From the NCBI GenBank assembly GCA_037444505.1, contig JBBIMH010000013.1, positions 51,972 through 115,971 on the forward strand: a DNA stretch of 64,000 bases, in the 5' to 3' direction. Of the stretch, positions 2,874 through 36,414 are shown in pieces (within the stretch, counting starts at the first letter, position 1; every line of letters starts with the position of its first letter). The notes below the pieces were generated by a model. It was not told where the DNA came from, searched no databases, and worked only from the letters and a program-made list of their open reading frames with translations. Source of the stretch: Nitrospirota bacterium. GTDB taxonomy: Bacteria > Nitrospirota > UBA9217. The position numbers were made by a program, and so were the translations under genes.

Positions 2874-4487
2874 CTATTTCTGGTCTCCTTCCGGAATAAA
2901 CCACTCATCTGCAAAAGAGAAGAACTTGTACGGATGGATCGCCACCCGCCTCACCTTCTTGTGATAAGCGGCGTAGTTCGTGAGCGTCCATAGGAACGTA
3001 TACGGATTCTCGTCTGCGAGCAGGGCATGGAGCTTCCTGTTTATGGTCCTCCTCTTTTCGTGGTCGAGCGTGAGCTTGCTCTCATTTATGAGGCCGTCCA
3101 CCTCCGGGTTGGAATAACCGATGAAATTGTTCTTCCACGGCCCTATCTCTCCAGAGTGGAAGAGCGAGGAGATGTCGGCCGAGTCATCGAATACCCAGGA
3201 GGCGAAGACAACGTCGAAGTCGTGCTCCAGGAACACGTCCTCCTTCCACGCCTGCCATTCTTTGAACTCGACGCGTATGTCAACACCCACATTCTTAAGA
3301 TAGTTCTTGAATGCAAGCACCACGCGCTTCACCGCCTCGCTCTCTTTCTCTATCGGGACCTTGAGAGAGAGCGAAAGCCTCTGCCCAGCCTTCTGCATGA
3401 TGCCGTCCGGCCCGGGGGTGAAGCCCGCCTCTGCGAGAAGGGCTTTGGCCTTCTGCGGATCGAACGGAAGCGGCTGCACATCCAGGTTATACGCCCATGA
3501 ACCTGGTGCGAACGGCCCTGAGATGACGGTTCCCCGGTTATTGAAGAAGGACTCGAGCATCTCCTGCCTGTTCACCGCATAAGTGAACGCCTTCCTCACC
3601 CTCTTGTCCGAAAGAAGGGGATTGCGCAGGTTGTACCCGAAGAAGGAATAGGAAAGCGCATTGTACGGCTGCAAAATGAATCTCTTGTCTCCCTCTATCT
3701 CGGGGATGTCGCGCGGGTTCACGAGCACGATCATGTCGATGGCATTGAACATGAGGGCCTGGGTCATGATGTTCTGGTCCGCGAAGGGCTTCGATATGAA
3801 CTTGTCTATGTGCGGCCTGCCCTTGAAGTAGTTTTCGTTCGCCACGAGTATGATCTCCCTGTCCGCCGTGATGTTCTTCAGCATAAACGGTCCGGTGCCT
3901 ATGGGGTTCTGGACGAATGGATCCTCCCTCGTAAGATAGAGCGGATTGGCCGGGCCGTGGCGCGGGATGATCTTGAAGCTGAACTTTGCAAGGGCATTCA
4001 GTATCGGCCTCTTCAATGTGAACTTCACGGCATAGTCGTCTATCTTCTCCACGCCTTCGATGAATTCGTACCTCACCTTGAGCGGGGTGATGGTCTTCGG
4101 GTGCATCATTATCTTGTATGTGAATATCACATCATCGGCCGTGAAGGGCTTCGGCTCCTCGCCTTCCCTGGCATGCCATGTGACGTCTTTTCTCAGAAAG
4201 AACGTGTACGTCCGGCCGTCGGGGGAGACCTCCCAGCGCTCTGCCAGCTCGGGCACTATCTCCTGCTTTTCGTTTATACCGACCAGGCCGTTGAATATCA
4301 GCTCGGTGATCCGCAATGATATCATCTCATTGCTCGTAATGGGATCGAGCGTAGCCGGCCTGCCGTACTCTCCGTAGCTCAATACGCCGCCGTCCGGCCT
4401 TCCGTCCTTCTTTCTGGCGGCCCATGCAGGAAGCGTAAGGACCGCTGTAATAGCCGCTATGACGAGAATCTGCAATATCCGTTTCAT
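2874..4487 (-). CDS. ABC transporter substrate-binding protein, family 5 (DppA/OppA-like), secreted
   Basis: 537 aa with a signal peptide (MKRILQILVIAAITAVLTLPAWA) and family-5 SBP-like sequence. First gene of the SBP-permease-permease-ATPase operon. Confidence 0.85.
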   Translation of the reverse strand: MKRILQILVIAAITAVLTLPAWAARKKDGRPDGGVLSYGEYGRPATLDPITSNEMISLRITELIFNGLVGINEKQEIVPELAERWEVSPDGRTYTFFLRKDVTWHAREGEEPKPFTADDVIFTYKIMMHPKTITPLKVRYEFIEGVEKIDDYAVKFTLKRPILNALAKFSFKIIPRHGPANPLYLTREDPFVQNPIGTGPFMLKNITADREIILVANENYFKGRPHIDKFISKPFADQNIMTQALMFNAIDMIVLVNPRDIPEIEGDKRFILQPYNALSYSFFGYNLRNPLLSDKRVRKAFTYAVNRQEMLESFFNNRGTVISGPFAPGSWAYNLDVQPLPFDPQKAKALLAEAGFTPGPDGIMQKAGQRLSLSLKVPIEKESEAVKRVVLAFKNYLKNVGVDIRVEFKEWQAWKEDVFLEHDFDVVFASWVFDDSADISSLFHSGEIGPWKNNFIGYSNPEVDGLINESKLTLDHEKRRTINRKLHALLADENPYTFLWTLTNYAAYHKKVRRVAIHPYKFFSFADEWFIPEGDQK

Positions 4488-6231: not shown

Positions 6232-7452
6232 TCATTTCAGCCCTGCGATGAATATCTGGTCCCACTGCTCCACCTGCGCCCTGAACACAATCGTGCCCTC
6301 GGATGAGCAAGATACATCGTGGTTCATCTTGGTGTTTGTCTTGAGCAGCAGGGACGTGTGTGAGTTCACATCTACAACATAGATAGGATTATACTCATGC
6401 TTGTCGTTCTTCACATAGACGATACGGTTGCTGTCCGGCATCCACGCAGGGCCGCGCTCCACATCCGGAATGACGTCAGAAGCGACTATTTTAGAAGCAA
6501 GGCCTTCTCCGCCCACAGGATCGGAGCCATCTGCGGAGACCACGGCGATGGACCAGATCTTAGGGTCTCCCACCTGATTGTAGTTCGTATAGAAGGCGAT
6601 CTTCTTCCCGTCTGGAGACCAGATGGGCCTAAGGTCGTCTGCGGTCCAAGAAGTCAGTTGTTTCATGGACTCGGCAGGCTTCGAGACATCGTTGATTACG
6701 TATATATCATGATTTTCGTTCGTGCCGTGCATAACCGCGATCCTCTTTCCGTCCGGCGACCACTGGGGATACAGATACGGCCTGCCTCCCTGAGTGAGCC
6801 TGGTGAGGCCGCGTGTGATCACGTCCATCAGGTACACATCTCCCTTGGCTGTGCGACCGGAGACAAAGGCTATCGTATTGCCGACAGGAGACCAATGGGC
6901 CTGGCCGTCTTTTTCCTTGTGGTCCGTGAGCCTCGTGGTAGTCTTCCCCCCGAGTTCGCGCAGATACAAGTCATAGTTTCCCTCTCCGCCGTTGCTCATG
7001 AATACAAAGCGGTCTCCGCTCGGCGCCCAGCTCATGCCTGCATTGTAGCTTACTTCCTCGAACACGCCGGGAAAGAAGAATTTCATCTCACCCTTGTCTT
7101 CTGATAGCTGATAATATATGGTCTGGACCACGGCGCCTTCGGGATTAGTAATGATAATCTCCTTCTTGTCTCCCTTGCTGCGCTCGAATGCGATGAGCCG
7201 GCCCGAAGGCGACCAAGTGGGATTCGAGTCGTTCCTGCCGGCCTCTATCTTAAGCAGCGGCCTGATGAACACGGGCTCTATCTCTGGTCTCTCCTTCTCT
7301 TCTTTTTCTACCGCAGCCTGCCCTTCTTCCTGCCTCTGCTCGATCTGAGCGGCTGGGGTGTCAACGACGGGGGGCTGCTGCCCGTATACACTCGAAATGC
7401 CCGAGGCCGAAACAAAGACCGCGGAGACAAAAATATACCGTCTGAAATCCAC
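6232..7452 (-). CDS. TolB-like periplasmic beta-propeller (PD40/WD40-like repeat) protein
   Basis: Signal peptide plus repeated WSPDG..IAF / DIYV motifs typical of TolB C-terminal propeller blades. Confidence 0.7.
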   Translation of the reverse strand: MDFRRYIFVSAVFVSASGISSVYGQQPPVVDTPAAQIEQRQEEGQAAVEKEEKERPEIEPVFIRPLLKIEAGRNDSNPTWSPSGRLIAFERSKGDKKEIIITNPEGAVVQTIYYQLSEDKGEMKFFFPGVFEEVSYNAGMSWAPSGDRFVFMSNGGEGNYDLYLRELGGKTTTRLTDHKEKDGQAHWSPVGNTIAFVSGRTAKGDVYLMDVITRGLTRLTQGGRPYLYPQWSPDGKRIAVMHGTNENHDIYVINDVSKPAESMKQLTSWTADDLRPIWSPDGKKIAFYTNYNQVGDPKIWSIAVVSADGSDPVGGEGLASKIVASDVIPDVERGPAWMPDSNRIVYVKNDKHEYNPIYVVDVNSHTSLLLKTNTKMNHDVSCSSEGTIVFRAQVEQWDQIFIAGLK

Positions 7453-7466
7453 TGAACCCTCCCATT

Positions 7467-10034
7467 CTACATCAGGTCTTTTATCTGATCCCAGTACTTC
7501 TGAGCCGCATCTCTGCTCTGCTCATAGGTCGCCTTGCCCTCGAGCTTCTTCGGGAAGAAATCGAAATAATCCCTCCACGCAAGATTGGCGCTGTTTAATA
7601 TCTGAGACTTCTTGGTTATGAGATAGAGCTTGTGATATGACAGGGCCAGATAGTAGTAGGTATCGTGCACTGCCTCGTCATAGTGCAGGTTCGGGAAGAA
7701 GCGCGTGTTCTGCTTGGCGGCCTGAAGGTTCTGGATCGCCTTTGCAAAACTCTGGGCGGCGGCGTCCTTGTCCTTCTGTACGAGGGTATTACCCTTTTCG
7801 TAATATGCATGGCCGAGGTTGGTGAAAGCCACTGCATACTGTTTGTATATGAGCTGTTGGTTCTCGGGGAGCGAGAGCACATTCTCGAACTCTCTGATGG
7901 CAGCGTCGTAGTCCTCTTTCTCGTCGAGATATATCTGGGCAAGTCTATGGTGCGCCTCTGAATAGTCAGGGTGCCCTTTCTCCGTGCTCGCGTAGGCCTT
8001 TATCGCGCCTTCTATGTCGCCATTCTGCTCGGCCCGCTCGCCTATCTTGAGATAGTCCTTCTGGAGCACGATCTTCCTGTCGCCTGTGCGATCCTCCACT
8101 TTGGATGCGAACTCCATCACCTCTTCCCAGTCTCGATAGTCGCCGCCCACGCTCACCCTTACTGTGTGGAAACCGAGAGGCACGAGCTTGTCGGTAATGG
8201 GCGTCTTGCCGCTTTTTTCTCCGTCAATATAGACCTCAGCGGAAGACGGCGTGGATTCCATCTTGAAGAGTGCATTATTGACCTGGAGCACATATTCCTT
8301 CACATCTCCCCTCTTATCCGCCTTCACCTTTTCGCTCACCTGCTGGTATCCGTGGCGATAGAGGACAAGATTATAATTCTTGCCGAGCCTAACAGGCACC
8401 TCTGCCTGGCCGTTGGAGCCGGTAGAGCCGATCCATTCTTCATTGAGATAGATATTCACGCCTGCAAGAGGAGAGACATCAGGAGGGACGCCCCCCTTCG
8501 CAGAGAGGATGAAGAAGTTCTGCTGGCCTTCGGCTTCGCCCTCACGATATATGTGCCTCACTACACGATCGCCGATATTCACCCTCTCGCCTTTCTTCAG
8601 GTCCTCCACCTCGAGCCACGAAGCAGACGCCTCGACCTTCCTCACCTTGAGCCTCCCCGTCTCTCTGTAACCCGCTATTTTCCCCGATTCGTCGAGACGC
8701 GCAGCCATGAGAATGAAGTCCGTTCCCTTCCTGATGCCGTAATCCGCCTTGCCGATGTTTATCTGAACCCTCTCATCCTCTTTAGCGAGCACAGTGCCTT
8801 CGAAGGGGAACTTCTCCTTTACCGCTGCAGCGATCTCCTTTGCCGCGCTGTTGATGTCGCCCATGCCTCTCGCACGAGTGATATGGCTCAAGATCAGCCT
8901 GCCGGAAGAGGTATAGAACTTGGTCTCTATGAGGAAGCCCTTTTCATCCTTGGCTACACTGCCCATGACTATCATATCGACCGTCCTCTGCAAAGACGTA
9001 TCCCTCCAGCCCTTCGCCACCGCCTTCTCGATGCTGATCCGCGCCCTCTTTACCTCCGCCTGGAGCGCGTCGCTCGGCACGCGTTTAAATGCGCCGAACT
9101 TGAACAGGTGATTCTCGAGCGCCGATTCCGTCTGACTGACTACGTCTTTGAGGTCCACGCCCGGTGTATTGCCGATGAATCGGTATATCCCTGTCCTTAT
9201 AGGCTTCGGGGTCGTGGGATAGAAATAGCGCTGGATGTTCACCCCGCCTTCTAGGGTCACCTGGGTCTTCCAGCTCGAGGGTATATATCCCGGCGCGGAC
9301 AGCGCCAAGGAGATCTTCTTGCCAGGCTCGCCGTCATAGCTGTATGTATATAGGCCCTTCTGGTCTGTCCTGCCCACGACCTTCTTGTCTATGCTTACGG
9401 TGACGCCGGGCAGGCCGCTCTCCTTTCCATATTCTTCTGTAAGCGCTGCAACATCGATCAATATGCGCTTCGACAAGGAAGCCTCGATCCTATCGCCAGG
9501 CGTCAGTTCCCCTGTCTTCTTCCATGTGGTGTATCCGCTCTTCGTGACGACGAGATCCGCCCCTCCTTTCGGGAGGTCTTTGTATTCATACACGAACTCT
9601 CCCTTTGCATCGGTCTTTCCGACCTCCTTATTGAATGCCTTGACCTCTGCATCAGGCACGGGAGCGCCCTTTTCAGTCGCCACAATGGTGACATATCTTG
9701 ATGCGATAAGCTCTGCGTCGAATGAATACTTGTCCATGTTCTTTTTTGGCAGCTTCATCAAGAAAGAGCCCTTCCAGGGCTGGATCCTGTACCCCGGCAT
9801 CTCCTTCGTAACGACAATCTCCACGTCGGCCCCTGGCTTTTTACGGATTATCTTATTGAATACGCCGTTCGTATCAGTGACGCCGAGCTCCTTTCCGTCC
9901 ACGACCACCTTTGCATCGGCGGCGGGCCCACCGTCCATACGCGCCTTCACCTCGAGCTCGAGCTTCTCACCGCAGGCGGAGAGCATAAGCGACGAAAACA
10001 GCAACAAGATTATAGGCATCACACGCTTGTACAT
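7467..10034 (-). CDS. Large multidomain lipoprotein with carboxypeptidase-regulatory-like repeats, a PEGA-like domain and a C-terminal TPR region
   Basis: Lipobox (LMLSAC) after MYKRVMPIILLL. Three repeats of the form VxVDGKxxGxTDxxG.. (CarboxypepD_reg-like). A PEGA-like segment (SAEVYIDGEKSGKTPIT..VRV). TPR-like C-terminus. The start was chosen at MYKRV, 51 nt inside the longest ORF. Confidence 0.65.
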   Translation of the reverse strand: MYKRVMPIILLLFSSLMLSACGEKLELEVKARMDGGPAADAKVVVDGKELGVTDTNGVFNKIIRKKPGADVEIVVTKEMPGYRIQPWKGSFLMKLPKKNMDKYSFDAELIASRYVTIVATEKGAPVPDAEVKAFNKEVGKTDAKGEFVYEYKDLPKGGADLVVTKSGYTTWKKTGELTPGDRIEASLSKRILIDVAALTEEYGKESGLPGVTVSIDKKVVGRTDQKGLYTYSYDGEPGKKISLALSAPGYIPSSWKTQVTLEGGVNIQRYFYPTTPKPIRTGIYRFIGNTPGVDLKDVVSQTESALENHLFKFGAFKRVPSDALQAEVKRARISIEKAVAKGWRDTSLQRTVDMIVMGSVAKDEKGFLIETKFYTSSGRLILSHITRARGMGDINSAAKEIAAAVKEKFPFEGTVLAKEDERVQINIGKADYGIRKGTDFILMAARLDESGKIAGYRETGRLKVRKVEASASWLEVEDLKKGERVNIGDRVVRHIYREGEAEGQQNFFILSAKGGVPPDVSPLAGVNIYLNEEWIGSTGSNGQAEVPVRLGKNYNLVLYRHGYQQVSEKVKADKRGDVKEYVLQVNNALFKMESTPSSAEVYIDGEKSGKTPITDKLVPLGFHTVRVSVGGDYRDWEEVMEFASKVEDRTGDRKIVLQKDYLKIGERAEQNGDIEGAIKAYASTEKGHPDYSEAHHRLAQIYLDEKEDYDAAIREFENVLSLPENQQLIYKQYAVAFTNLGHAYYEKGNTLVQKDKDAAAQSFAKAIQNLQAAKQNTRFFPNLHYDEAVHDTYYYLALSYHKLYLITKKSQILNSANLAWRDYFDFFPKKLEGKATYEQSRDAAQKYWDQIKDLM

Positions 10035-10097: not shown

Positions 10098-10547
10098 TTA
10101 CATGGTCGGCGGTTGGATATTCACCTCTCCCGGATTTATGATCTTGTCCTCATCCGATTTGGAGCCTTCGATGGTCTTGCGCTTTCCTTCCCGTATCTTC
10201 TTGAGCTTGAAGTCCACCTTCTTGCGCGTGAACTTCTTGATCTCCACTGTCTGCGTCTCGGTCATATATCCGATTCGGTTTGCCTCGACCTTGTAGATGC
10301 CCGGCGTGATCCTGTCTTTTTGCGACTCGAATTTTCCTTCGGCATCCACTGTCACGGCGTGAGAGGCCTGTTCGATAGTCGAAGTGGTGTTGATCATGTT
10401 TACTACCGTCCCTTGAGGATTGTCCTTCGTGGCTGGAATCGGCTGCATGTTGAGATCCACGAGCTGCACTGTCCCGTATATCTTGGGTGAGCATGCAGCA
10501 AGCAGCACTGCGACGGCGCATAGTAGAAGATTCCGTTTGATATTCAT
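10098..10547 (-). CDS. Small lipoprotein with a carboxypeptidase-regulatory-like domain
   Basis: MNIKRNLLLCAVAVLLAACSP lipoprotein signal. A TVDAEGKF..PGIYKV segment resembles the repeats of the downstream large lipoprotein. Confidence 0.55.
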   Translation of the reverse strand: MNIKRNLLLCAVAVLLAACSPKIYGTVQLVDLNMQPIPATKDNPQGTVVNMINTTSTIEQASHAVTVDAEGKFESQKDRITPGIYKVEANRIGYMTETQTVEIKKFTRKKVDFKLKKIREGKRKTIEGSKSDEDKIINPGEVNIQPPTM

Positions 10548-11067
10548 AATGTATCCCCCTCCGGCGTCAGAATGGTATAGGGCTATATCCACACAGGAAT
10601 CTTAGCATAAAATCTTTCGAGCAGGTGTATTTTTTAGGCTAATCCAGAGTCCATAAATGAAAAAACCGCCAAAGTGCATGTATATGGAGAATTTTTCCCT
10701 ATATACTGAATCTTTGGCGGCCCGACCGGCGTATAAAACAGAAATCCGCCCCTCTTAGGCGCGGCAATCACAGATTCCTGTTTTATGTAGCCTCGAAGCT
10801 CTGCGTCCCCAGGTTTCCCTGGGTTTGCTCTGAGCAAAGTCAGCAATTGGTTATAATGTAGGCAGACGACGGTAAAAATGTATCATTACTCGGCCCGCTT
10901 GTCAAGTGGTTGAAAGGCGGCAAAATGAAAAGATTGTTCAAGCCTGGGGCGGTGCTCCAAACGGTTTCACCCCCCTCTTTATCGACGCGGCCTAAATTTT
11001 AGGAAGGGTGTTCGTCCCCTGTTGGGCATACCCAGAAGCTGAGCAAAACGGACCGCTCGACTCCAGA

Positions 11068-11096
11068 TTGACAGCGCTGCCTCGGTAGTGTATACT
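11068..11096 (+). promoter_or_regulatory. Sigma70-type promoter: TTGACA, 17 nt spacer, TATACT
   Basis: Exact -35 and near-exact -10 with 17-nt spacing, about 55 nt upstream of the ATG at 11155. Followed by the hairpin ccggactaatccgg and the RBS GAGGAGG. Confidence 0.5.
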
Positions 11097-11154
11097 AGAT
11101 AAAAACCGGACTAATCCGGTGTTATATCACTGACAGTTTGAGGAGGACTACGGC

Positions 11155-11628
11155 ATGAATACAGCGGCGGCGGCTATTTGGGAATACAAGAACGATTTCT
11201 TTTCGATTGTAATTCGCGAGCATGAGGAGAAGCCCGGCAGTTTCATCTTCTGCAGCGGTGTCAGCATCCCCATGTTCAACCCCCTCTGTTGGAGAAAGAC
11301 GGGCATATGCTCCAATCCTGCATTCAAGGGGCTGCAGCTTATGCGTGCAAATGTCTCTCATTATGCTATCTCGCGCGGGATGAAGACGCAAAGAGCGGAT
11401 GCGGAATGTCCGCATGAAATCGGACGCGGCGACGGCTGGTATCAGGAGAGCCCGCTTTTGATCGAGGGCGCGTCCTACGAAGATGTACAGGATATTCTTA
11501 ATTTCAGCGCGCGAGACCTCATCCAGTCTGTGCTCAATGCATGCCAGATAGATGCGGGTATCCCAGAGGGAGAGATGGCGCCCGAAAAGATGCAGCGGTT
11601 CCTGGAATCGTTGGTAAAGCCGGCTTGA
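11155..11628 (+). CDS. Hypothetical cysteine-containing protein (157 aa), no family recognised
   Basis: Clean ORF with a strong RBS and a consensus promoter. Convergent with mnmA. Five Cys residues. Confidence 0.5.
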   Translation: MNTAAAAIWEYKNDFFSIVIREHEEKPGSFIFCSGVSIPMFNPLCWRKTGICSNPAFKGLQLMRANVSHYAISRGMKTQRADAECPHEIGRGDGWYQESPLLIEGASYEDVQDILNFSARDLIQSVLNACQIDAGIPEGEMAPEKMQRFLESLVKPA

Positions 11629-11762
11629 TGCCTTGATAGAAGCCTGTTAGATCCGCAAGAGGGCGCAGAGGTACATAGAATATCCGCGCCTTTTTTAATC
11701 TCTGCGGAAGGTCAAGTCGTGAAGATATAATAGGAGAAGATGCATTGAATTCCGGATGTGTT

Positions 11763-12803
11763 TCAAACGGCTGATTCAATTATCCCCCCTCCTACGACCA
11801 TATCGCCGTCATAGAACACAGCGGCCTGGCCGGGACAGACGCCGGAGACAGGATGGTCGAAGACGATGCGGACCCTCCTCTTTCCCACAGGCTCGATGAC
11901 CGCCGGAACGAACGGAGATCGGTAGCGGATCTTGACTGTAACATGCATACGTTCTTTCAGTTCGTCGAACGGAATAAAGCAGGCATCTGCAGCAAAGGCC
12001 TCTGATGTTAAGAGGTCGTCGTACCTGCCGAGCACCACCCTGTTCGTCTCCGCTTCGATGCGCACCACGTAAAGTCTCGATCCCGCCGAGACGCGGAGTT
12101 TTCTCCTCTGGCCTATGGTGAAGAAGGCTACACCCTCGTGCCTTCCCACAACAGTGCCGCCCACCATTACCATCTCGCCGGGCATGAGCGCCTCAGGTGC
12201 ATATTCCTTGAGGAAGGCGCGATAGTCGTTGCCAGGTATAAAGCAGACCTCTTGGCTATCGGGCCTCTCCGCCGTAGGCAGGTTCCTGCCTCTTGCGAGT
12301 CTGCGCACATCCGCCTTTTTATACCCCCCCAGCGGGAAGAGCACATGCTTCATCTGGTCCTGGGTCATGCGGTAGAGAAAATAGCTCTGGTCCTTGGCCT
12401 CATCAATGCCCCTTTTGAGTAGGGCACGTCCGGTCTTTTCATCGCGTTCAATGCGGGCATAGTGGCCTGTGGCAAGCCTATCGAAACCATGCTCGACTGC
12501 ATAATCGAGCAGCAGCCGGAATTTCACGATGTCATTGCACCTTATGCATGGGTTGGGCGTGCGGCCGATGCGATACTCTGAGACGAAGTTATCTATGATC
12601 TCCCGCTCGAAGGCATCCTGCACATCGAGAATCATGTGGGGAATGCCGAGGTGTTCGCACACCGCCATTGCGGAGGCGATGTCGCAGCACACGCCAGCGG
12701 CGAGCTTCATAGTGACCCCGGCCACATCGAGGCCCTGCTGTTTGAGGAGCGCCGCGGTCGCTGAACTGTCAACCCCGCCGCTCATTGCAATTAGAACACG
12801 CAT
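11763..12803 (-). CDS. mnmA: tRNA-specific 2-thiouridylase MnmA
   Basis: PP-loop MRVLIAMSGGVDSS, and the overall MnmA-like sequence is recognisable throughout. The start was chosen at MRVL, not the longer upstream ATG. Confidence 0.9.
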   Translation of the reverse strand: MRVLIAMSGGVDSSATAALLKQQGLDVAGVTMKLAAGVCCDIASAMAVCEHLGIPHMILDVQDAFEREIIDNFVSEYRIGRTPNPCIRCNDIVKFRLLLDYAVEHGFDRLATGHYARIERDEKTGRALLKRGIDEAKDQSYFLYRMTQDQMKHVLFPLGGYKKADVRRLARGRNLPTAERPDSQEVCFIPGNDYRAFLKEYAPEALMPGEMVMVGGTVVGRHEGVAFFTIGQRRKLRVSAGSRLYVVRIEAETNRVVLGRYDDLLTSEAFAADACFIPFDELKERMHVTVKIRYRSPFVPAVIEPVGKRRVRIVFDHPVSGVCPGQAAVFYDGDMVVGGGIIESAV

Positions 12804-12877
12804 GGTCATGCAAGATACTCGACAGCTACGAATCAGCATGGATGGACGCGGAAATCTTCGGGGACAAGATTGACAAG

Positions 12878-12995
12878 CTCGTAAAAAAGCATTTGCACCG
12901 CCGAGAGCGCCGAGGGCACGGAGAAAAACGTCTATCTTTTGAATGGGCTCTCGGCGCTCTCCGCGATCTCTGCGGTAAATCGAACTTTTTACGAG
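12878..12995. repeat. Palindromic MITE/REP-like intergenic repeat, copy 1
   Basis: ctcgtaaaaaag...caccgcc at the left end and ctctgcggtaaat...ctttttacgag at the right end. Same family as the copies at 38297, 40262 and 40390. Confidence 0.6.
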
Positions 12996-13077
12996 TTCAT
13001 CAATATTCCCAGCCCCAAAGGCCGCTTCTTATCCGTGTTTATCCGTATGCAACAGTGGTAAAAGATTGTTTATCATT

Positions 13078-13818
13078 TTAAGCTTTTTCCCACTTAATGA
13101 CAAGGAGGATGACCGAGCCGGCAGCAAAGAGGACCGCACCCACGAGCGCCCAGATTGCTCCGGGGTCTTTGTTGACCATGAGGACGGCGGAAGGCCCGGC
13201 CTCGAAGGCAAGGCTTTTAAGATACACGCCCGTCCCCTTGTAGAAGAGCGGGCTGTTCGGCCCGAGCATGCCCGCCTTCACCCTCTTGCCGTCTTCGAAC
13301 ACATATACCTCGGCGGACCAGTCCGTAAGATAACCCGCGTCGTCCACCTTCGCGCGGATCTCGCGGAGGTAGAGCCCCCGGTCTTCTGGCAGCCGCGCGA
13401 AGGCGCCCTCGGGCATGACGCCGGAGAGACGGTATCCCCACACCGCCCCCATGAGGTGTGCAAGAAGGATGAACAGGAACCCGATGTGGATGATTTGAGG
13501 CGAAATGCGGAGAAGAAAGTCCCTTCGTGTCCACCGGCCCTTTACAGTCTGGATGCTGCAGACGAGAGTGTTGATGGTAAGAATGACAAGAGCGGCGACG
13601 GAGGCGAAGAACCACCAAGTCTGCCACAGGTGCCTCGCGCCCGCCTCGGCAGCCCACTCAAAGAGCAGGGCGCTGTTCATGGGGCCAAAGACCTCGCGGT
13701 ACGCGGGCATCATGTACGAGCCGATGAAAAAAAGGGCAATGAGCGCCACGAGCGTCCAGACCGTAGTCTTGAGGGAGATGAAGAAGTCCTTCATGATAAA
13801 TCGATAGGCATATTGCAC
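13078..13818 (-). CDS. Short ResB/Ccs1-like cytochrome c biogenesis membrane protein
   Basis: N-terminal and C-terminal transmembrane segments with ResB-like motifs but a much shorter periplasmic region. An alternative start MKDFF at 13794 overlaps the stop of the upstream fragment (ATGA). Confidence 0.55.
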   Translation of the reverse strand: MQYAYRFIMKDFFISLKTTVWTLVALIALFFIGSYMMPAYREVFGPMNSALLFEWAAEAGARHLWQTWWFFASVAALVILTINTLVCSIQTVKGRWTRRDFLLRISPQIIHIGFLFILLAHLMGAVWGYRLSGVMPEGAFARLPEDRGLYLREIRAKVDDAGYLTDWSAEVYVFEDGKRVKAGMLGPNSPLFYKGTGVYLKSLAFEAGPSAVLMVNKDPGAIWALVGAVLFAAGSVILLVIKWEKA

Positions 13819-14027
13819 GGGGCAGAGAGCTCTGTTTTTACGCTATGCTCTCTGCTCAATGTCATTTGCCGTCCCTTAAAACTCATGCGAGTTTTCATCA
13901 AAAGCCAGACACCCGCGCATAGAAACATGACGATAATGAAACCAGAGATGCCCATCCATGAAATAAGACGACCGCCTCGGATATAAGGATTCTTTCCCGG
14001 ATGTAGTACAACACGGCTTATTGAATC
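13791..14027 (-). pseudogene. Duplicated 3' fragment of ccsA (CcsA C-terminus remnant)
   Basis: Minus-strand frame encodes ..VVLHPGKNPYIRGGRLISWMGISGFIIVMFLCAGVWLLMK.., against the CcsA C-terminus YLHARLIKGWSGRPVSWMGIAGFVIVMFLYAGVGLLMK. About 75% nucleotide identity to 16815-16950. An in-frame TAA lies upstream and there is no convincing start. Confidence 0.45.
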
Positions 14028-14158
14028 TTACACGAACTGCGGAAAAACAGCAACCCGAGAAATGCTTCGTGGCATATGACGGACACCAACGGTTCGAGAC
14101 AGCGCCCTATACATTGCCCTCTCCCTGCCGGGGGAGAGGATGAGCGTAAGAGGAATTG

Positions 14159-14821
14159 TCACTTCTTTGCATATTCCTCGATCTTCCCGTTCTTCATGAC
14201 GAGCTTCCGATCGGCGAGCCGATCGGCCTGACCTGCGTCGTGGGTTGTAATAATGATGGTACGGCCGTGCTGTTGCTTGAGCCTCGTGATTATGCCTTCG
14301 ATGATCTCCGTGTTCTCCTGATCTACCGAGGCCGTAGGCTCGTCGAGGAAAAGGATTTCCGGTTCGATGGCCAGCGCCCGTGCGATGCCGAGCCTCTTGG
14401 TCTCGCCGCTCGAGAGGGTCAGCGCCCGCTGGTCCCGCTTCGTATCGAGACCGACGAAGGCGAGTGCATTCATTGTCCGCTCTTTCAGTTCATGTCTTTT
14501 AGTTCCGCGTACGGCAAGACCATATGCGACGTTCTTAAACACTGTGGTGTTGAACACGCCGACCTGCGGCAGCACGAGAGTGATCCTGCGGCGGAGCGCC
14601 ATGTCCCTCGGCATCTCCTGATCGCCGGAAAAATACCGCACCTCTCCCCCGTCCTGTTGCTCGAGGAGCGCGCATATCCTGAGGAACGTTGACTTGCCGC
14701 TCCCGTTAGGCCCAGTGAGCACATATGTCGTTCCTCCCTCGAAGGAAAAGGAACAGCCACGCAGCACGGGTCTGCCGCCGTAGCTCTTCGAGATTTGGGA
14801 TGCAATCAGTCTCAGGCTCAT
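14159..14821 (-). CDS. tupC: Tungstate/molybdate-type ABC transporter ATP-binding protein (TupC-like)
   Basis: Walker A GPNGSGKST, signature LSSGETKRLGIARAL, Walker B ILFLDEP. Immediately downstream of tupB. Confidence 0.75.
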   Translation of the reverse strand: MSLRLIASQISKSYGGRPVLRGCSFSFEGGTTYVLTGPNGSGKSTFLRICALLEQQDGGEVRYFSGDQEMPRDMALRRRITLVLPQVGVFNTTVFKNVAYGLAVRGTKRHELKERTMNALAFVGLDTKRDQRALTLSSGETKRLGIARALAIEPEILFLDEPTASVDQENTEIIEGIITRLKQQHGRTIIITTHDAGQADRLADRKLVMKNGKIEEYAKK

Positions 14822-14823
14822 GA

Positions 14824-15525
14824 TTACGCGTGCACTCCTCCCCTTCTCTGGACGATGTGCAGCACCGCATTGATCGCAAACGATAGCGCGAGAAGGATGG
14901 TCCCGAGCGCTAGGGCAAGTTCGAAATTCCCCTTGTCCGTCTCGAGGGCGATCGTCGTGGTCATCACCCGTGTGGAGCCTGCAATGTTACCGCCCACGAT
15001 CAGGATCGCGCCCACCTCGGCCATGACCCTGCCGAAGGCTGCGATCACCGCCGACAAAATCCCATACCGCGCTTCCCTGATAATCGTTATTATGGTCTGG
15101 AAGGGAGTTGCCCCGAGAGAGACCGCGGCCTGTCTAACCGCCTGATCCACGGCGACAACGGCAGAATGGCAAAGGGCCGCGACGATGGGCAAGGCAAGGA
15201 CGGTCTGGGCGATGACCATGGCCGACGGCGTATAGAGAAGTCCCATAAAACCCAGAGGCCCGCTCCTCGAAAGAAGCAGGTAGACGAAGAGCCCCACGAC
15301 GACAGGCGGAAGGCCGGTGAGTGTGTTCATGACGCTGATGACGAAGCCTCGGCCCGGGAACCGCGCCAGCCCCGTCGCCGCTCCCGCAGGGACCCCGCCG
15401 ATGACGGACAGGAGGAGCGCGACGCCCGAGACCTCGAAGGTGAGCAGAATGATCCCGATGAGCTCGGCGTCAAGGTGAACAATCAGGCCGAAGGCCTTTA
15501 TGAAGCCCTGGGTGATGGAGTCCAT
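14824..15525 (-). CDS. tupB: Tungstate ABC transporter permease (TupB-like)
   Basis: 233-aa polytopic permease directly 3' of the binding protein, with a 3-bp gap to the ATPase. Confidence 0.75.
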   Translation of the reverse strand: MDSITQGFIKAFGLIVHLDAELIGIILLTFEVSGVALLLSVIGGVPAGAATGLARFPGRGFVISVMNTLTGLPPVVVGLFVYLLLSRSGPLGFMGLLYTPSAMVIAQTVLALPIVAALCHSAVVAVDQAVRQAAVSLGATPFQTIITIIREARYGILSAVIAAFGRVMAEVGAILIVGGNIAGSTRVMTTTIALETDKGNFELALALGTILLALSFAINAVLHIVQRRGGVHA

Positions 15526-15636
15526 AAAAACTTCATTTTAACCGCTGATGTACGCAGATTCACATGGATAAAAAATTTCAATACTCCATGTCAGTCTGTC
15601 ATGCGAATTCATCCGTGTTCATACGTGATAAATAAA

Positions 15637-16443
15637 TCACTTTGCGTTCGGCTTGAACAGCACGATTCCGTTTTTGTCCTTGAACGACGCAATGGCCGTC
15701 TGGCCTTCCTTCGAGACGAGCCAGTTCACGAACTCCCTAGCTTCCTTGTACTTCACGTGCTTGTGCTTCGCCGGGTTCACAACCATTACGCCGTACTGAT
15801 TGAAGAGCGAAGGGGCACCCTCGAAAACCATGACCATATCGAGCTTGTCCTTCGTGGCAAGCCATGTGCCGCGGTCCGTGAGCGTGTAGGCCCGCTTTTC
15901 ATCGGCGATCCGCTGAGTCTTCTCCATTCCCTGGCCGGCCTCAAGATACCACTTCTGACCCGCAGGATCAATCCCTGCAGCCTTCCAGAGGGTAAGCTCT
16001 TTCGTGTGGGTGCCTGATTTGTCGCCGCGGGAAACGAATAGCGCACCTGCTCTCGCGATCTTCCGGAGCGCATCTACTGCCGTCGTTGCGCTTTTGAGCT
16101 TCGCGGGGTCATGCGGCGGGCCGATGATCACGAAGTCATTGTACATCACGTCGTGCCGGTCCACAAACCAGCCCTCCTCCACAGCCTTGAGCTCCTGCTC
16201 CTTCGCATGGACCAGGACAACGTCTGCGTCGCCACGCTTACCGATCTCGATGGCCGCGCCCGTACCCACGGCGATCAGGTCCACTCTGATGCCAGTTTTC
16301 TTTTCGAATAGCGGCAGGATGTAATCAAACAACCCCGAATTCTGCGTGCTCGTCGTCGAAGCGCAGCGGATTCTCGGCTGTTCTGTAAGGGCCGCGCATG
16401 TTGATGCTGCCAGTATAATCAGTACCGGCAACGCTCTCTTCAT
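15637..16443 (-). CDS. tupA: Tungstate ABC transporter substrate-binding protein (TupA-like)
   Basis: Signal peptide. Anion-binding motif TTSTQNSGL near the N-terminus, which is characteristic of TupA. Confidence 0.75.
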   Translation of the reverse strand: MKRALPVLIILAASTCAALTEQPRIRCASTTSTQNSGLFDYILPLFEKKTGIRVDLIAVGTGAAIEIGKRGDADVVLVHAKEQELKAVEEGWFVDRHDVMYNDFVIIGPPHDPAKLKSATTAVDALRKIARAGALFVSRGDKSGTHTKELTLWKAAGIDPAGQKWYLEAGQGMEKTQRIADEKRAYTLTDRGTWLATKDKLDMVMVFEGAPSLFNQYGVMVVNPAKHKHVKYKEAREFVNWLVSKEGQTAIASFKDKNGIVLFKPNAK

Positions 16444-16804
16444 GATCGTCTCCTTTTTTGTATGAGTATGACAAGCAGTCTTATTTGCTTATGCGCGAGA
16501 AATCTCTTTAAATCGTTATGGAACTTCCAGAGCAGATCGATTGCTCGTTCCCCCGCCTCAGGCACCTGTCCGCTACCTACCACTTGCATCCTGTGGCAAG
16601 TTCCGCAAAGGGTTTTTCGGCCTGGCGGTTAATGGAATCCTCGATGTCCAAAGCGCGGCGACATGTCATTTCCATGGACTCAGCCGCTGACTGACTAATC
16701 GAATATGACGCGGACTTTTTTGTCACCAGCGGGCTCGATGACCCCCGGAGCGAACAATGAGCGGTAACGGACCCTAGCTGTTACATGCCTGTCTCTCCTC
16801 ACAT

Positions 16805-17512
16805 CTACGGATAGAACTCATGCGAGCTCTTCATCAAAAGCCCGACTCCCGCATAAAGAAACATGACTATAACGAAGCCCGCTATGCCCATCCAGGAGAC
16901 AGGACGCCCACTCCACCCCTTTATGAGCCTTGCATGAAGATAGAGGCTGTACCATAACCAAACAATAGTCGTCCAGAGCTCCTTGGGTGTCCAGAGCCAG
17001 TAGGTCCCCCAGGCAAGATGCGCCCATATGCCGCCGAATATCATCCCGACCGAGAATATGACATAACCGACCAGGATGAGGCGGTACTGGTTCCGCTCGG
17101 AGTTTTGCTCGTTTCCACAGAGATGCAACAGACCCCAGACAGCGGCGATGCCGAAGAGCGCATATGCTACGAAAGTCAATACGACGTGCAGCTCGAACCA
17201 TAACGTTTTCAAGACCGGCGGCAGCGGAGCCTGCATCTGCGGCGCGTATGCTGAGAACACAAGAAGCGCCAGAATGAGAGGGACGGAGATGTAGGTGAAT
17301 AGATCGCGCCTGCGTCTCCAGGCAAATACTGCATAGACTGCAGCAAGGGCAAAGGTGAGAAAGCCCAAGGTATCATGAAGACCGACAAGAGGTATGCGGC
17401 CGTATTCTACGGCACTTTGTGCGATTGCGACTGCATGCAGTAGAAGTCCGACAACGACCAACCGCGGCCTGTACATCGCGGCGCAGTAGAGAAAGGGAAT
17501 GATTATTTCCAT
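16805..17512 (-). CDS. ccsA: Cytochrome c-type biogenesis protein CcsA/ResC
   Basis: WWD-type motif WAHLAWGTYWLWTPKELW with conserved His residues. Polytopic membrane protein. Confidence 0.8.
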   Translation of the reverse strand: MEIIIPFLYCAAMYRPRLVVVGLLLHAVAIAQSAVEYGRIPLVGLHDTLGFLTFALAAVYAVFAWRRRRDLFTYISVPLILALLVFSAYAPQMQAPLPPVLKTLWFELHVVLTFVAYALFGIAAVWGLLHLCGNEQNSERNQYRLILVGYVIFSVGMIFGGIWAHLAWGTYWLWTPKELWTTIVWLWYSLYLHARLIKGWSGRPVSWMGIAGFVIVMFLYAGVGLLMKSSHEFYP

Positions 17513-17529
17513 AACAGGCGAAGACTAAA

Positions 17530-17557
17530 AAGGCATCCCGTATCATGGGGATGCCTT
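17530..17557 (-). terminator. Rho-independent terminator downstream of hup
   Basis: On the minus strand AAGGCATCCC-catgatac-GGGATGCCTT is followed by TTTTAG, a perfect 9-10 bp stem. Confidence 0.6.
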
Positions 17558-17590
17558 ATACCAGCAGCATTAATGAATCCGCTGTATTGT

Positions 17591-17878
17591 CTATTTCTTA
17601 CCGAGAATCGCCTCTTTGGCAGCCTTGGCGACGCGGAACTTGACCACCTTCTTCGCGGGTATCTTGATGGCCTCGCCGGTCTGGGGGTTCCTGCCCATGC
17701 GCGCCTTGCGGTTTACGAGGACGAGTTTCCCGAGGCCGGGAAGCGTGAAGGCGTTCTTGGCCTCCTTGTAAGCAAGGTTTGCCAGCTCCTCGAGAAACTG
17801 GACAGCCACCTTTTTCTTGATGTCCACCTTCTTCGCCAGGTAGTCCGCAATCTGGGACTTTGTCATGGCTTTTGCCAT
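17591..17878 (-). CDS. hup: HU/IHF-family nucleoid-associated DNA-binding protein
   Basis: MTKSQIADYLAKK...GLGKLVLVNRKARMGRNPQTGEAIKIPAKKVVKFR is canonical HU sequence. Confidence 0.9.
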   Translation of the reverse strand: MAKAMTKSQIADYLAKKVDIKKKVAVQFLEELANLAYKEAKNAFTLPGLGKLVLVNRKARMGRNPQTGEAIKIPAKKVVKFRVAKAAKEAILGKK

Positions 17879-18133
17879 AAACTTTCCTCCTTGAATGATG
17901 AAATGAGAATGTTATTTCGACTGCCGTGGCAGATATGCCGCAATTTTCGTTTAAAGTATATCCATTCTCCGCAAAAATAGCAAGCAAAATTTTAAAAAAC
18001 TTTTTGTGGCTGGATGACTGCTCACGATGGACCTTTTTCTGAGTTGACTTGCGTATCCGATTTATGTTAATTTATGCGACGATTCGACGGACCGCGTCTG
18101 TTGAAGCAGCTATTTTATTTCACAAGGAGGCGG

Positions 18134-18262
18134 ATGATGGCCACGAAGACGAATTTCATACTCAAGGTGCAAGATGCAAAGCTCGCGGATGTTCAGAAGG
18201 CGCTCAAGGATGCGAACATAAATGTGATCAGCATCCTGGAAATCCATAAGGAAGAGGCTTAG
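18134..18262 (+). CDS. Hypothetical 42-aa miniprotein
   Basis: GGAGG RBS 6 nt upstream of an ATG inside a longer ORF. Predicted beta-alpha-beta pattern. No family recognised. Confidence 0.3.
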   Translation: MMATKTNFILKVQDAKLADVQKALKDANINVISILEIHKEEA

Positions 18263-18361
18263 CTTTTAAAATCGTAAGGCTTTTTCGTACAACCGGCTGC
18301 ATGATAAGTCCCACAGCTGGAACGATATATTATACTCTTATTAGGCGGCGAAAACAGCGTT

Positions 18362-18619
18362 ATGAAGGTCACGCTCGATGATCTCGAACAAGTCGCACAG
18401 AGCCTCCAGGTCAAGGTGACCTATGACGATCTGAGGACGTCGAGAGGGGGCTCTTGCAGGGTGATGGAAACACACAGGATAATAATCAACAAACGCCTGC
18501 CCGCCTCCGAAAAGGCGAGCATCCTCGCCAGGGAGCTTGCCGCCTTCGACTTGAATGGCCTTGACATCCCTGAAAAAGTGCGAAAGAGGATAATGTTCGA
18601 GGCAGGACGCCGGGGATGA
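18362..18619 (+). CDS. Hypothetical 85-aa protein resembling a degenerate ImmA/IrrE (M78) peptidase core
   Basis: LQVKVTYDDL..GGSCRV..HRIIINKRL..ILARELAAF resembles the M78 core, but RELAA replaces HEXXH. Confidence 0.35.
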   Translation: MKVTLDDLEQVAQSLQVKVTYDDLRTSRGGSCRVMETHRIIINKRLPASEKASILARELAAFDLNGLDIPEKVRKRIMFEAGRRG

Positions 18620-32860: not shown

Positions 32861-32988
32861 CAGTCTTGCTGTATGTCTTATAGCCCTTGTTCTCATCTTA
32901 TTCACCCCCTTTTCCGCTGTGGGCGGCGACTTCCGCGCCGCAAAACCTTTTTTTCTCATACCCTCACCCTTCCTCCAAGCCGATCTAA

Positions 32989-34209: not shown

Positions 34210-34255
34210 GACACAGCTCCTTTCCGACTACACGGGCCTCTCCGGCATTTTCAGA

Positions 34256-36199: not shown

Positions 36200-36414
36200 A
36201 CTACCCCCTAATCAGGAGTACAAAAGTCTTATTTTATTTCGCGCTTTTTTCTCTCTTGTATCCGTAATTATTATTTTATCACTACAGACCGGATTGTCAA
36301 TTGACCCTAAAGGTGTAGGCAGGGCGAATGGGCAATAAATCAGCCGGAAACCCACAAGTCACGAAAGGAAGAGTCAAAGAAGACGGCTTGACCCGGGACG
36401 GCGTAAGATGCGGA

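What the first reader, a model, noticed from the sequence alone, without database searches (positions are those of the whole stretch)
13791..17512. Tungstate transporter tupABC sits between ccsA and a short resB-like gene, with a roughly 140-bp duplicate of the ccsA 3' end
All five genes are on the minus strand in the order ccsA, tupA, tupB, tupC, then a CcsA C-terminal remnant, then the ResB-like gene. Region 13878-14015 is about 75% identical at nucleotide level to 16815-16950. It encodes ...RLISWMGISGFIIVMFLCAGVWLLMK, against CcsA ...RPVSWMGIAGFVIVMFLYAGVGLLMK. The stop of the remnant overlaps an ATG of the ResB-like gene (ATGA at 13791-13794), as a translationally coupled ancestral ccsA-ccsB pair would. 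This suggests the tup cassette inserted into, or recombined within, the 3' end of an ancestral ccsA directly upstream of ccsB and duplicated its last 140 bp or so. It is a rare visible scar of operon remodelling. It may also place tungsten import and cytochrome c maturation under one regulator.
Basis: seen in the sequence. Interest (0 to 1): 0.6.

Follow-up and report, generated by a model that had tools for sequence, protein, structure and literature searches.

The report
Duplication-and-loss scars around relocated tupABC
A tungstate-uptake gene cluster was moved between two partner genes for cytochrome c assembly by an old duplication followed by deletions; three leftover gene fragments still mark the joints, which makes this a clear but mechanistically ordinary record of how bacterial gene order changes.

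Summary
Window 13877-13973 repeats the ccsA 3' end (16812-16909): 97 nt, 81% identical, one 1-nt indel, alignment score 99 against 19±2.4 for shuffles. The further 42 nt claimed upstream match only at chance level.

In 117 of 118 related Nitrospirota loci, ccsA lies no more than 251 nt upstream of the short resB. In 14 loci a ModE-like regulator plus tupABC lies downstream of mnmA. The cassette was therefore relocated.

I found two more scars:
- An mnmA fragment (16683-16804) sits directly after the ccsA stop. It is closest to this clade's own mnmA.
- A promoter-like box plus the first 10 codons of the ABC permease that follows tupC in relatives (13985-14068) abuts the ccsA remnant.

The closest relative (L137, about 88% nt identity) has the same joints and the same 1-nt deletion, so the event predates their split.

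Best model: duplication of [ccsA 3' end–resB–mnmA–regulator–tupABC–permease 5' end], then complementary losses.

The window lineage later deleted about 1.44 kb. This removed tup's own promoter and half of its regulator.

The remnant's ATGA overlap with resB results from the frameshift. The ancestral stop (13876-13878) lies 81 nt upstream, so ancestral translational coupling is not supported.

It is a good scar, but not a new kind of system.

The parts
17591..17878 (-). HU-type DNA-binding protein gene, the conserved upstream neighbour of ccsA
   Evidence: PF00216, E=7e-23. It is 88-93% aa identical and syntenic in the close relatives.
17530..17557 (-). Intrinsic-terminator-like hairpin after HU, ending about 17 nt before the ccsA ATG
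   Evidence: 10-bp stem with 6 GC pairs and a T tail.
16805..17512 (-). Intact ccsA (short, 235 aa, CcsA/ResC-type heme-handling membrane protein). Its last roughly 100 nt are the parent-type copy of the repeat.
   Evidence: PF01578 at 115 bits; TIGR03144 at 155 bits, below its cut-off. Full-length alignment to relatives. It ends ...HEFYP*, two codons longer than relatives and L137 (...HEF*).
16683..16804 (-). Scar 1: mnmA pseudogene fragment (about codons 290-333 of 358) fused directly to the ccsA stop codon
   Evidence: tblastn MnmA residues 276-333, E=1e-9 to 1e-12, with in-frame stops. blastn 16699-16788 against 11857-11946: 72% over 90 nt, E=8e-8. The joint 'TAG ATGTGAGG' is shared with L137. 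The nearest sequences are the clade's own mnmA genes.
16440..16682 (-). Decayed 3' part of a small ModE-N-type regulator gene. About 45 N-terminal codons and the promoter are missing, and there is one frameshift. Its stop overlaps the tupA ATG. The deletion joint to the mnmA fragment is at 16682/16683.
   Evidence: The intact 126-aa gene is in L137 at 4036-4416 (TIGR00637 at 86.7 bits, PF00126) and upstream of tupA in 10 relatives. The window matches only residues 82-122 in one frame and about 46-78 in another. Window 16688-16725 corresponds to L137 2693-4167, a deletion of about 1.44 kb.
15637..16443 (-). tupA-like periplasmic oxyanion-binding protein
   Evidence: PF12849; NF041772 TupA is the best hit, E=4.5e-72, 243 bits, below the 400-bit equivalog cut-off.
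14824..15525 (-). tupB-like ABC permease
   Evidence: PF00528; NF041773 TupB at 175 bits, below cut-off.
14159..14821 (-). tupC-like ABC ATPase
   Evidence: PF00005; NF041774 TupC at 127 bits, among many ABC ATPase hits.
14117..14140 (-). 9-bp GC-rich hairpin just after the tupC stop, with no U tract
   Evidence: Present in L137 too, but not more stable than shuffles (z=-1.8 and -0.9).
13985..14068 (-). Scar 2: former downstream neighbour of tupC. It holds a promoter-like TTGCTG (14053-14048), 17 nt, TAAGAT (14030-14025), then the first 10 codons (GTG 14014 to CTT 13985) of a DppB-type ABC permease gene.
   Evidence: blastn to the tupC-downstream region of L006, L004 and L007: 78-88%, E=1.6e-5 to 8e-3. 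The alignment shows VLYYIRERIL against MLLYLLKRIL / MWRYVLKRVL. The L006 gene at 8635-9570 is PF19300+PF00528.
13876..13978 (-). Scar 3 (the reported finding): ccsA 3' remnant. It holds the last 32-34 codons plus the ancestral TAA (13876-13878), with a 1-nt deletion near 13891-13893. The duplication joint to the permease fragment lies within 13974-13985.
   Evidence: The same deletion and the same joint occur in L137 at 6870-6982.
13795..13875 (-). Ancestral ccsA-resB intergenic spacer with an imperfect hairpin. It is read through by the frameshifted remnant ORF (13791-13955).
   Evidence: 91% identical to L137. It shares the ...GCGTAAAA... motif and a hairpin with the spacers of L001, L004 and L011. 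Inverted repeat I3.
13078..13794 (-). Short ResB-like gene (238 aa from ATG 13794), the normal immediate downstream partner of ccsA
   Evidence: PF05140 at 53.7 bits. The ATG aligns with residue 1 of all close relatives, and none has a Shine-Dalgarno sequence.
11763..12839 (-). Intact mnmA, the parent-type copy of scar 1
   Evidence: PF03054, PF20259 and PF20258. The order HU-ccsA-resB-mnmA is conserved in the close relatives.

Best explanation
The region records a local gene-order change made by duplication followed by loss. It happened in the common ancestor of the window organism and its nearest known relative, L137.

The ancestral order, still seen in relatives, was HU - ccsA - short resB - mnmA - (spacer) - small ModE-like regulator - tupABC - DppB-type permease.

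Proposed steps:
1. A segment of about 5-7 kb was duplicated, most simply in tandem. One end lay inside ccsA, about 100 nt before its stop. The other lay about 30 nt into the permease gene. This created the new joint permease-5'|ccsA-3' (window 13974-13985).
2. The redundant resB and most of mnmA in the first copy were then deleted, from the ccsA stop codon to about mnmA codon 290 (joint at 16804/16805).
3. The regulator-tupABC of the second copy must also have been lost.

The net result is that [regulator-tupABC] and [resB-mnmA] swapped places. It left three non-functional fragments: psi-mnmA, the permease 5' end, and psi-ccsA-3'.

Later decay:
- A 1-nt deletion in psi-ccsA, shared with L137.
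- Stop codons in psi-mnmA.
- In the window lineage only, a deletion of about 1.44 kb between short CGGC-type microhomologies. It removed the end of psi-mnmA, two genes still present in L137, and the promoter and N-terminal half of the regulator.

What is shown: the fragments, their parentage, the shared joints, the ancestral order, and the absence of a second tup copy within this 64-kb window.

What is inferred: that the duplication was tandem, that the second tup copy was lost, and the consequences for expression. Those consequences would be that tupABC in the window is now read through from ccsA, and that resB-mnmA may be driven from the captured permease promoter.
For: - Repeat statistics for psi-ccsA.
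- Second repeat, mnmA against 16683-16804.
- Third fragment: permease promoter-like box plus 10 codons.
- Ancestral ccsA-resB adjacency in 117 of 118 loci.
- Regulator-tupABC downstream of mnmA on the same strand in 14 loci: L002, L003, L004, L006, L007, L013, L014, L051, L065, L075, L079, L089, L093, L094.
- A permease directly after tupC in L004, L006, L007 and L013.
- L137 has the same order, the same joints and the same 1-nt deletion, and its psi-mnmA runs on to mnmA's own stop codon.
- psi-mnmA matches the clade's own mnmA best: 111 bits against 72.5 or less for 38 other relatives.
- The two window ccsA ends share the derived 'GR..S' codons against 'GPKV.' in relatives.
- The two remnants from window and L137 group together at 86%.
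- No transposase, integrase or flanking inverted repeats were found.
Against: - No intermediate genome carrying both full copies was found. Only two members of the rearranged clade are known.
- No remnant of a second regulator-tupABC copy or of the permease is detectable downstream of the intact mnmA in the window, 10593-11762. The L137 contig ends inside mnmA. The predicted third loss is therefore unverified.
- The final structure is equally well produced by a non-tandem (template-switch) insertional duplication.
- Divergence between window and L137 is mosaic: the last 120 nt of ccsA are 67-78% identical, against about 90% in the flanks. Later recombination or gene conversion has therefore blurred the dating.
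Confidence: 0.8

Rival explanations
1. A tup cassette, mobile or horizontally acquired, inserted into the 3' end of ccsA and duplicated about 140 bp of the target.
For: The net effect is an insertion between ccsA and resB, with a direct repeat of the ccsA end on the far side.
Against: - ccsA is intact.
- The cassette's ends are fragments of the chromosome's own neighbouring genes, mnmA and the permease that follows tupC in relatives.
- There is no transposase, integrase or terminal inverted repeat.
- TupA and TupB are about as similar to relatives (73-78% aa) as the flanking genes are.
- A target duplication of about 100 nt is far longer than transposon target-site duplications (my background knowledge).
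Confidence: 0.05
2. The duplication was never tandem. A single replicative template-switch event (FoSTeS/MMBIR-like) copied [mnmA 3' end ... permease 5' end] into the ccsA-resB junction and re-copied about 100 nt of ccsA on switching back. The original tup copy downstream of mnmA was lost later.
For: It gives the same three fragments at the same joints. It needs one rearrangement plus one loss, instead of one duplication plus two losses.
Against: - Nothing distinguishes it from the tandem model in the present sequence.
- Microhomology at the old joints can no longer be read after 20-30% divergence.
- Tandem duplication is the commoner event in bacteria (my background knowledge).
Confidence: 0.25
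3. The remnant is no longer mere debris and now serves resB expression. The captured permease promoter and start codon (L137), or an internal ATG (window), open a leader ORF. Because of the shared 1-nt frameshift, this ORF runs through the old spacer and stops at ATGA on the resB start. That would give transcription and translational coupling to a resB that lacks a Shine-Dalgarno sequence. This reading is compatible with the best explanation.
For: - Both genomes keep an ORF that ends in ATGA at the resB ATG: window 13791-13955, and a 74-codon ORF from GTG 6841 in L137.
- The promoter-like block 13990-14109 is 92-95% identical between the two genomes, against 82-84% at third codon positions of the tup genes.
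- resB has no Shine-Dalgarno sequence.
Against: - pN/pS between the two remnant ORFs is 0.66, close to neutral.
- The two ORFs start at different codons and in different ways.
- resB lacks a Shine-Dalgarno sequence in all relatives, including those with 60-140-nt untranslated spacers, so coupling is not needed.
- The -35 box matches only 3 of 6 positions, and the promoter scan did not report the site.
- The chance of an open 27-codon frame ending at ATGA is roughly 0.1 (my estimate).
Confidence: 0.2
4. The similarity is a chance match or an independent small paralogue, not a scar.
For: None beyond the short length of the repeat.
Against: - The score lies 34 sd above shuffles.
- The remnant keeps the ancestral stop codon and is followed by the ancestral spacer and resB.
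- It contains a frameshift.
- The same fragment is present in L137.
Confidence: 0.01

Closest known systems
Tandem-duplication-random-loss (TDRL) rearrangements of animal mitochondrial genomes (one of the four standard rearrangement types, e.g. PMC3283314)
   Same: A block of genes changes order without inversion. Pseudogene fragments of the lost copies sit at exactly the positions the model predicts: a truncated gene at the duplication joint and a truncated gene at a deletion joint.
   Different: This case is in a bacterial chromosome and involves operon-sized blocks rather than tRNA genes. The second loss is not visible. A tandem intermediate is inferred, not observed.
System II cytochrome c biogenesis pair CcsA/ResC + CcsB/ResB
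   Same: Both Pfam families are present (PF01578, PF05140). The two genes are adjacent in 117 of 118 relatives.
   Different: - Both proteins are short (235 and 238 aa).
- The order is ccsA then resB, which is opposite to resB-resC of Bacillus (my background knowledge).
- The tryptophan-rich motif reads W-x-W-T-PKE in the whole clade, where I recall W-x-W-D.
- In the window and L137 the pair is split by 3.0-4.4 kb.
TupABC tungstate ABC transporter with a ModE-type regulator
   Same: Three-gene architecture of binding protein, permease and ATPase. The best NCBIfam hits are TupA and TupB. In relatives and L137, a small ModE-N-like gene lies directly upstream and overlaps tupA.
   Different: - Scores are below the equivalog cut-offs.
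- The regulator has only the DNA-binding domain (126 aa).
- In the window the regulator is a truncated, frameshifted pseudogene and the cassette has no promoter of its own.

Membership tests
Duplication-loss (TDRL-type) rearrangement | Order change without inversion relative to the ancestral order | tested here: met
   The ancestral order HU-ccsA-resB-mnmA-regulator-tupABC is seen in relatives. The derived order HU-ccsA-regulator-tupABC-resB-mnmA is seen in the window and L137. All genes are on the same strand.
Duplication-loss (TDRL-type) rearrangement | Truncated duplicate of the gene cut by the duplication boundary, located at the novel joint | tested here: met
   psi-ccsA 3' end (13876-13978) is joined to the permease 5' fragment (13985-14068).
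Duplication-loss (TDRL-type) rearrangement | Remnants of the lost copies that are paralogous to the retained copies of the same genome | tested here: met
   psi-mnmA at 16683-16804 has the clade's own mnmA as its best match. The psi-ccsA copies share derived codons with the window's ccsA.
Duplication-loss (TDRL-type) rearrangement | Loss of the second copy of the relocated block, or a surviving intermediate with both copies | tested here: inconclusive
   There is no second tup copy or remnant in the 64-kb window. The L137 contig ends in mnmA. No intermediate genome was found among 138 loci.
Mobile-element / integrative insertion | Transposase or integrase, terminal inverted repeats, short target-site duplication | tested here: not met
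   None appears in the Pfam scans of the neighbouring ORFs or in the repeat search. The direct repeat is about 100 nt and diverged.
System II CcsA (ResC-type) | Cytochrom_C_asm domain with the tryptophan-rich heme-handling motif and flanking histidines | tested here: inconclusive
   PF01578 scores 115 bits, above its gathering score. TIGR03144 scores 155, below its 187.6 cut-off. The motif is WGTYWLWTPKE, with Thr at the position where I recall Asp, in all 117 relatives. Histidines are present in WAHLAWG and YLHARL, as read directly from the sequence.
System II CcsB (ResB-type) | ResB domain protein encoded next to ccsA | tested here: inconclusive
   PF05140 scores 53.7 bits, above its gathering score, but covers only part of the 486-position profile. 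The protein is 238 aa and has no NCBIfam hit. Adjacency holds in relatives but is broken in the window.
TupABC tungstate transporter | TupA-type binding protein plus TupB permease plus TupC ATPase in one operon | tested here: inconclusive
   The architecture is met. NF041772 scores 243 bits (cut-off 400), NF041773 scores 175 (cut-off 320), and NF041774 scores 127 (cut-off 400).
TupABC tungstate transporter | Selectivity for tungstate over molybdate | not testable with these tools
   This needs binding or uptake assays.
ModE-type regulator | Intact ModE N-terminal DNA-binding domain | tested here: not met
   The L137 protein scores 86.7 bits against TIGR00637 (cut-off 98.5). The window copy lacks about the first 45 codons and is frameshifted.

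The most novel reading that the evidence does not exclude
The scars have been co-opted into a rewired expression unit. The fragment of the permease gene would supply a promoter and start codon. The frameshifted ccsA tail would act as a leader ORF coupled by ATGA to resB, which has no Shine-Dalgarno sequence. In the window lineage, deletion of the ModE-like repressor and its promoter would make tungstate uptake depend on read-through from ccsA. Metal-cofactor supply and cytochrome c maturation would then be expressed together.
Probability: 0.15. Interest if true: 0.5.

Novelty: new member of a known kind. Interest (0 to 1): 0.35.

Why it matters
Bacterial genomes usually delete non-functional DNA quickly, so the intermediate steps of operon reshuffling are rarely visible. 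Here three fragments and two genomes allow the event to be reconstructed joint by joint. The reconstruction shows duplication followed by complementary loss, not cut-and-paste or a mobile element.

It also gives a natural comparison:
- L137 keeps tup's own regulator and promoter.
- The window has lost both.

This pair could be used to test how a transporter cassette behaves after it lands inside another operon. The biology of the genes themselves is not new.

Tried and rejected
- **Riboswitch upstream of tupA (for example Moco/Tuco).** Rfam at E≤1 over 12500-18500 gave nothing.
- **Conserved tupA leader RNA.** The ~175-nt block 16512-16688, conserved upstream of tupA in five relatives, first looked like a cis-regulatory RNA. 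It proved to be the decayed 3' part of a small ModE-like protein gene that is intact in L137 and 10 relatives. The RNA idea was dropped.
- **Stop-codon mutation in ccsA.** I first read the intact ccsA's extra two codons (YP) as a mutated stop. Comparison with L137 shows a 6-nt indel next to the shared joint instead.
- **Second tup copy or remnants downstream of mnmA.** I searched with tblastn at relaxed E, blastn to all loci, and queries from the permease and the L137 insert genes. Nothing was found.
- **Closer relatives or intermediates.** Both large scans returned nothing above 68% aa identity. The protein search gave only L137 (74%) and L138 (71%, ancestral order). The window's own record could not be retrieved or named.
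- **Selection on the remnant peptide.** pN/pS is 0.66, so it is not a conserved protein.
- **Promoter and terminator scan.** It found no consensus promoter for ccsA, tupA or resB, and no terminator between ccsA and resB. It did find an mnmA-proximal promoter-like site at 13103-13075. The hairpin after tupC is not significant.
- **Dating from divergence.** I abandoned this as unreliable because window-L137 identity is mosaic.

Full report
**1. What is at the coordinates**

On the minus strand the window encodes, in order:
- an HU-type protein (17591-17878);
- a short CcsA (16805-17512; PF01578);
- a TupA/TupB/TupC-like ABC transporter (15637-16443, 14824-15525, 14159-14821);
- a short ResB-like protein (13078-13794; PF05140);
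- MnmA (11763-12839).

For the transporter, the best NCBIfam hits are TupA and TupB, below their equivalog cut-offs.

Between tupC and resB lies a copy of the ccsA 3' end. The figures for 13877-13973 against 16812-16909 are:
- 79 of 97 matches with one 1-nt gap;
- score 99 against 19.2±2.4 for shuffles;
- blastn E=3e-19;
- 80 nt at 80% without gaps.

The repeat is therefore real, but about 100 nt long rather than 140.

**2. The remnant's reading frame**

An alignment with 17 relatives shows that their ccsA genes end ...LLMKSSHEF-stop. The remnant keeps GAGTTT-TAA (stop at 13876-13878) but lacks one base after GATGAA. Its frame therefore shifts and runs through the old intergenic spacer to a TGA that overlaps the resB ATG.

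The ATGA overlap is thus a by-product of the frameshift. In the ancestral frame, the stop lies 81 nt before resB. That spacer shares a ...GCGTAAAA... motif and a hairpin with the 60-100-nt ccsA-resB spacers of relatives.

Only 11 of 118 relatives have a gap of 10 nt or less. None of the close ones has a Shine-Dalgarno sequence before resB.

**3. Ancestral arrangement**

Scans of species-representative genomes and of metagenomes with the ResB-like protein returned 136 loci. All are Nitrospirota/Thermodesulfovibrionia-type MAGs or contigs, and none is more than 68% identical at the amino-acid level.
- In every locus that carries both gene ends, ccsA lies directly upstream of resB (gap no more than 251 nt in 117 of 118).
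- The close relatives share u162-u164-u85-u62-HU-ccsA-resB-mnmA with the window.
- In 14 of them a tupABC cluster lies 0.6-5.6 kb downstream of mnmA on the same strand. In ten loci, nine of them among these 14 plus L090, a small ModE-N-like gene lies just upstream of tupA or, in L090, just after mnmA at the contig end (TIGR00637 at 86.7 bits).
- In L004, L006, L007 and L013, tupC is followed by a DppB-type permease.

The cassette came from the same neighbourhood.

**4. Two further scars**

- *Scar after ccsA.* Directly after the ccsA stop codon, 16683-16804 is a fragment of mnmA, about codons 290-333, with in-frame stops. tblastn gives E=1e-9 to 1e-12. blastn of 16699-16788 against 11857-11946 gives 72% over 90 nt, E=8e-8.
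- *Scar after tupC.* The segment 13985-14068 aligns with the tupC-permease spacer of L004, L006 and L007. It comprises a conserved TTGC(G/T)G-17-TAAGAT box and the first ten codons of the permease (VLYYIRERIL against MLLYLLKRIL). After these the sequence switches to the ccsA 3' end within 13974-13985.

The relocated block is therefore bounded on both sides by pieces of its former neighbours. The ccsA remnant sits at the joint between the end of that block and the start of resB's own upstream region.

**5. The nearest relative shares the rearrangement**

A protein search found one closer relative, L137 (Logan SRR24079446; ResB 74% aa; about 87-92% nt over most of the region). Its features are:
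- The order is HU - ccsA - psi-mnmA - Peptidase_M15_4 - PDDEXK_3 - intact 126-aa regulator - tupABC - permease fragment - psi-ccsA - resB - mnmA.
- The ccsA|mnmA joint (TAG ATGTGAGG...) matches the window's.
- The permease|ccsA joint matches the window's.
- The 1-nt deletion in psi-ccsA is the same.
- Its psi-mnmA is longer and runs to mnmA's own stop codon.

The next relative, L138 (71% aa, about 70-73% nt), has the ancestral HU-ccsA-resB-mnmA order. The event therefore happened once, on the branch leading to window + L137.

**6. Parentage of the fragments**

- psi-mnmA of L137 matches the window's mnmA best: 111 bits over 168 nt, against 72.5 bits or less for 38 other relatives.
- psi-mnmA of the window matches only the mnmA of L137 and of the window.
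- The two window ccsA ends share derived 'GR..S' codons, where relatives have 'GPKV.'.
- The two remnants group together at 86%.

The fragments are intragenomic paralogues, not foreign DNA. No transposase, integrase or flanking inverted repeats are present.

**7. Mechanism**

The simplest history is a duplication of [ccsA 3' end - resB - mnmA - ... - regulator - tupABC - permease 5' end], most simply in tandem. It was followed by deletion of resB and the 5' four-fifths of mnmA from the first copy, and loss of regulator-tupABC from the second copy.

This is the tandem-duplication-random-loss logic familiar from animal mitochondrial genomes (PMC3283314 lists it among the standard rearrangement types).

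*Shown:* the fragments, joints, parentage and ancestral order, and that no second tup copy lies within the window.

*Inferred:*
- That the duplication was tandem. A template-switch insertional duplication gives the same end state.
- The loss of the second tup copy. Nothing recognisable remains in 10593-11762, and the L137 contig ends in mnmA.

**8. Later decay in the window lineage**

Window 16688-16725 corresponds to L137 2693-4167. About 1.44 kb was deleted between short CGGC-type microhomologies. The deletion removed:
- the tail of psi-mnmA;
- the two L137-specific genes;
- the strong promoter-like TTGACT-17-TATATT site in front of the regulator (read);
- the regulator's first ~45 codons.

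The remaining piece is also frameshifted. The window's tupABC therefore has no regulator and no recognisable promoter of its own. No terminator is predicted between ccsA and resB.

Co-transcription of ccsA, tupABC and possibly resB is thus a reasonable inference, but it is untested.

**9. Is the remnant functional?**

For:
- Both genomes keep an ORF ending at ATGA on resB. In L137 it starts at the permease's own start codon.
- The promoter-like block is somewhat better conserved than third codon positions (92-95% against 82-84%).

Against:
- pN/pS is 0.66.
- The two ORFs start differently.
- The -35 box is weak and the scan did not report the site.
- resB is translated without a Shine-Dalgarno sequence or coupling in most relatives.

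I rate exaptation as possible but unproven.

**10. Caveats**

Identity between the window and L137 is mosaic:
- tupABC, mnmA and HU: 90-93%;
- last 120 nt of ccsA: 67-78%;
- much of resB: 65-72%.

Later recombination, or gene conversion with the remnant, may have occurred. I do not date the event beyond 'before the window-L137 split and after the split from about 70%-identical relatives'.

**11. Verdict**

It is wrong or incomplete in mechanism: this was not an insertion into ccsA, and the ATGA is not ancestral.

The feature is an unusually complete three-scar footprint of a duplication-loss gene-order change. It is instructive, but it belongs to a known kind of process.

Noticed in passing
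window 10783-10839 (-): A c-di-GMP-I riboswitch (RF01051, 36.8 bits, above the gathering score) lies in the 1.17-kb non-coding stretch downstream of mnmA. It sits ahead of a CarboxypepD_reg-domain protein (10098-10592) and an 872-aa PEGA/TPR protein.
   Followed up: no
window about 16990-17025 (CcsA motif WGTYWLWTPKE); all CcsA-like genes in L001-L138: The whole clade (117 relatives plus the window) has Thr in W-x-W-T-PKE, at the position where I recall the canonical WWD motif having Asp. This goes with unusually short CcsA (235 aa) and ResB (238 aa) proteins and a ccsA-then-resB order. It may be a distinct subfamily of System II-like proteins.
   Followed up: partly
window 16813-16932 and 13091-13630, compared with L137: Nucleotide identity to L137 drops to 65-78% in the last 120 nt of ccsA (exactly the part that has a duplicate) and across most of resB. 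The flanks are 90-97% identical. This suggests recombination, or gene conversion with the remnant.
   Followed up: partly
L137 2866-3926: L137 carries a Peptidase_M15_4 gene and a PDDEXK_3 gene between psi-mnmA and the regulator. Neither occurs in the window or in any other locus fetched.
   Followed up: partly
window 31502-37017 (-): The block of a 200-aa protein, aconitase, citrate synthase and aldehyde dehydrogenase follows mnmA directly in L138. In the window it lies about 19 kb away, on the other side of the locus. Further rearrangements have therefore occurred near mnmA.
   Followed up: no
window 17530-17557 (-) and 17513-17529: A strong terminator-like hairpin after HU ends only about 17 nt before the ccsA ATG. 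No consensus promoter or Shine-Dalgarno sequence precedes ccsA. How ccsA is transcribed is unclear.
   Followed up: no
L004 11012-11737, L007 11012-11737, L014 11111-11914; also L065, L075, L079, L094: Some relatives carry a second, about 47-50% identical TupA-like binding-protein gene just upstream of tupA.
   Followed up: no
window 13075-13103 (-): The best promoter-like site in the region (TTGTCA-17-TAAAAT, 10 of 12 matches) lies at the 3' end of resB, ahead of mnmA. The resB-mnmA spacer is 238 nt in the window against 112 nt in L137, with little similarity between them.
   Followed up: no
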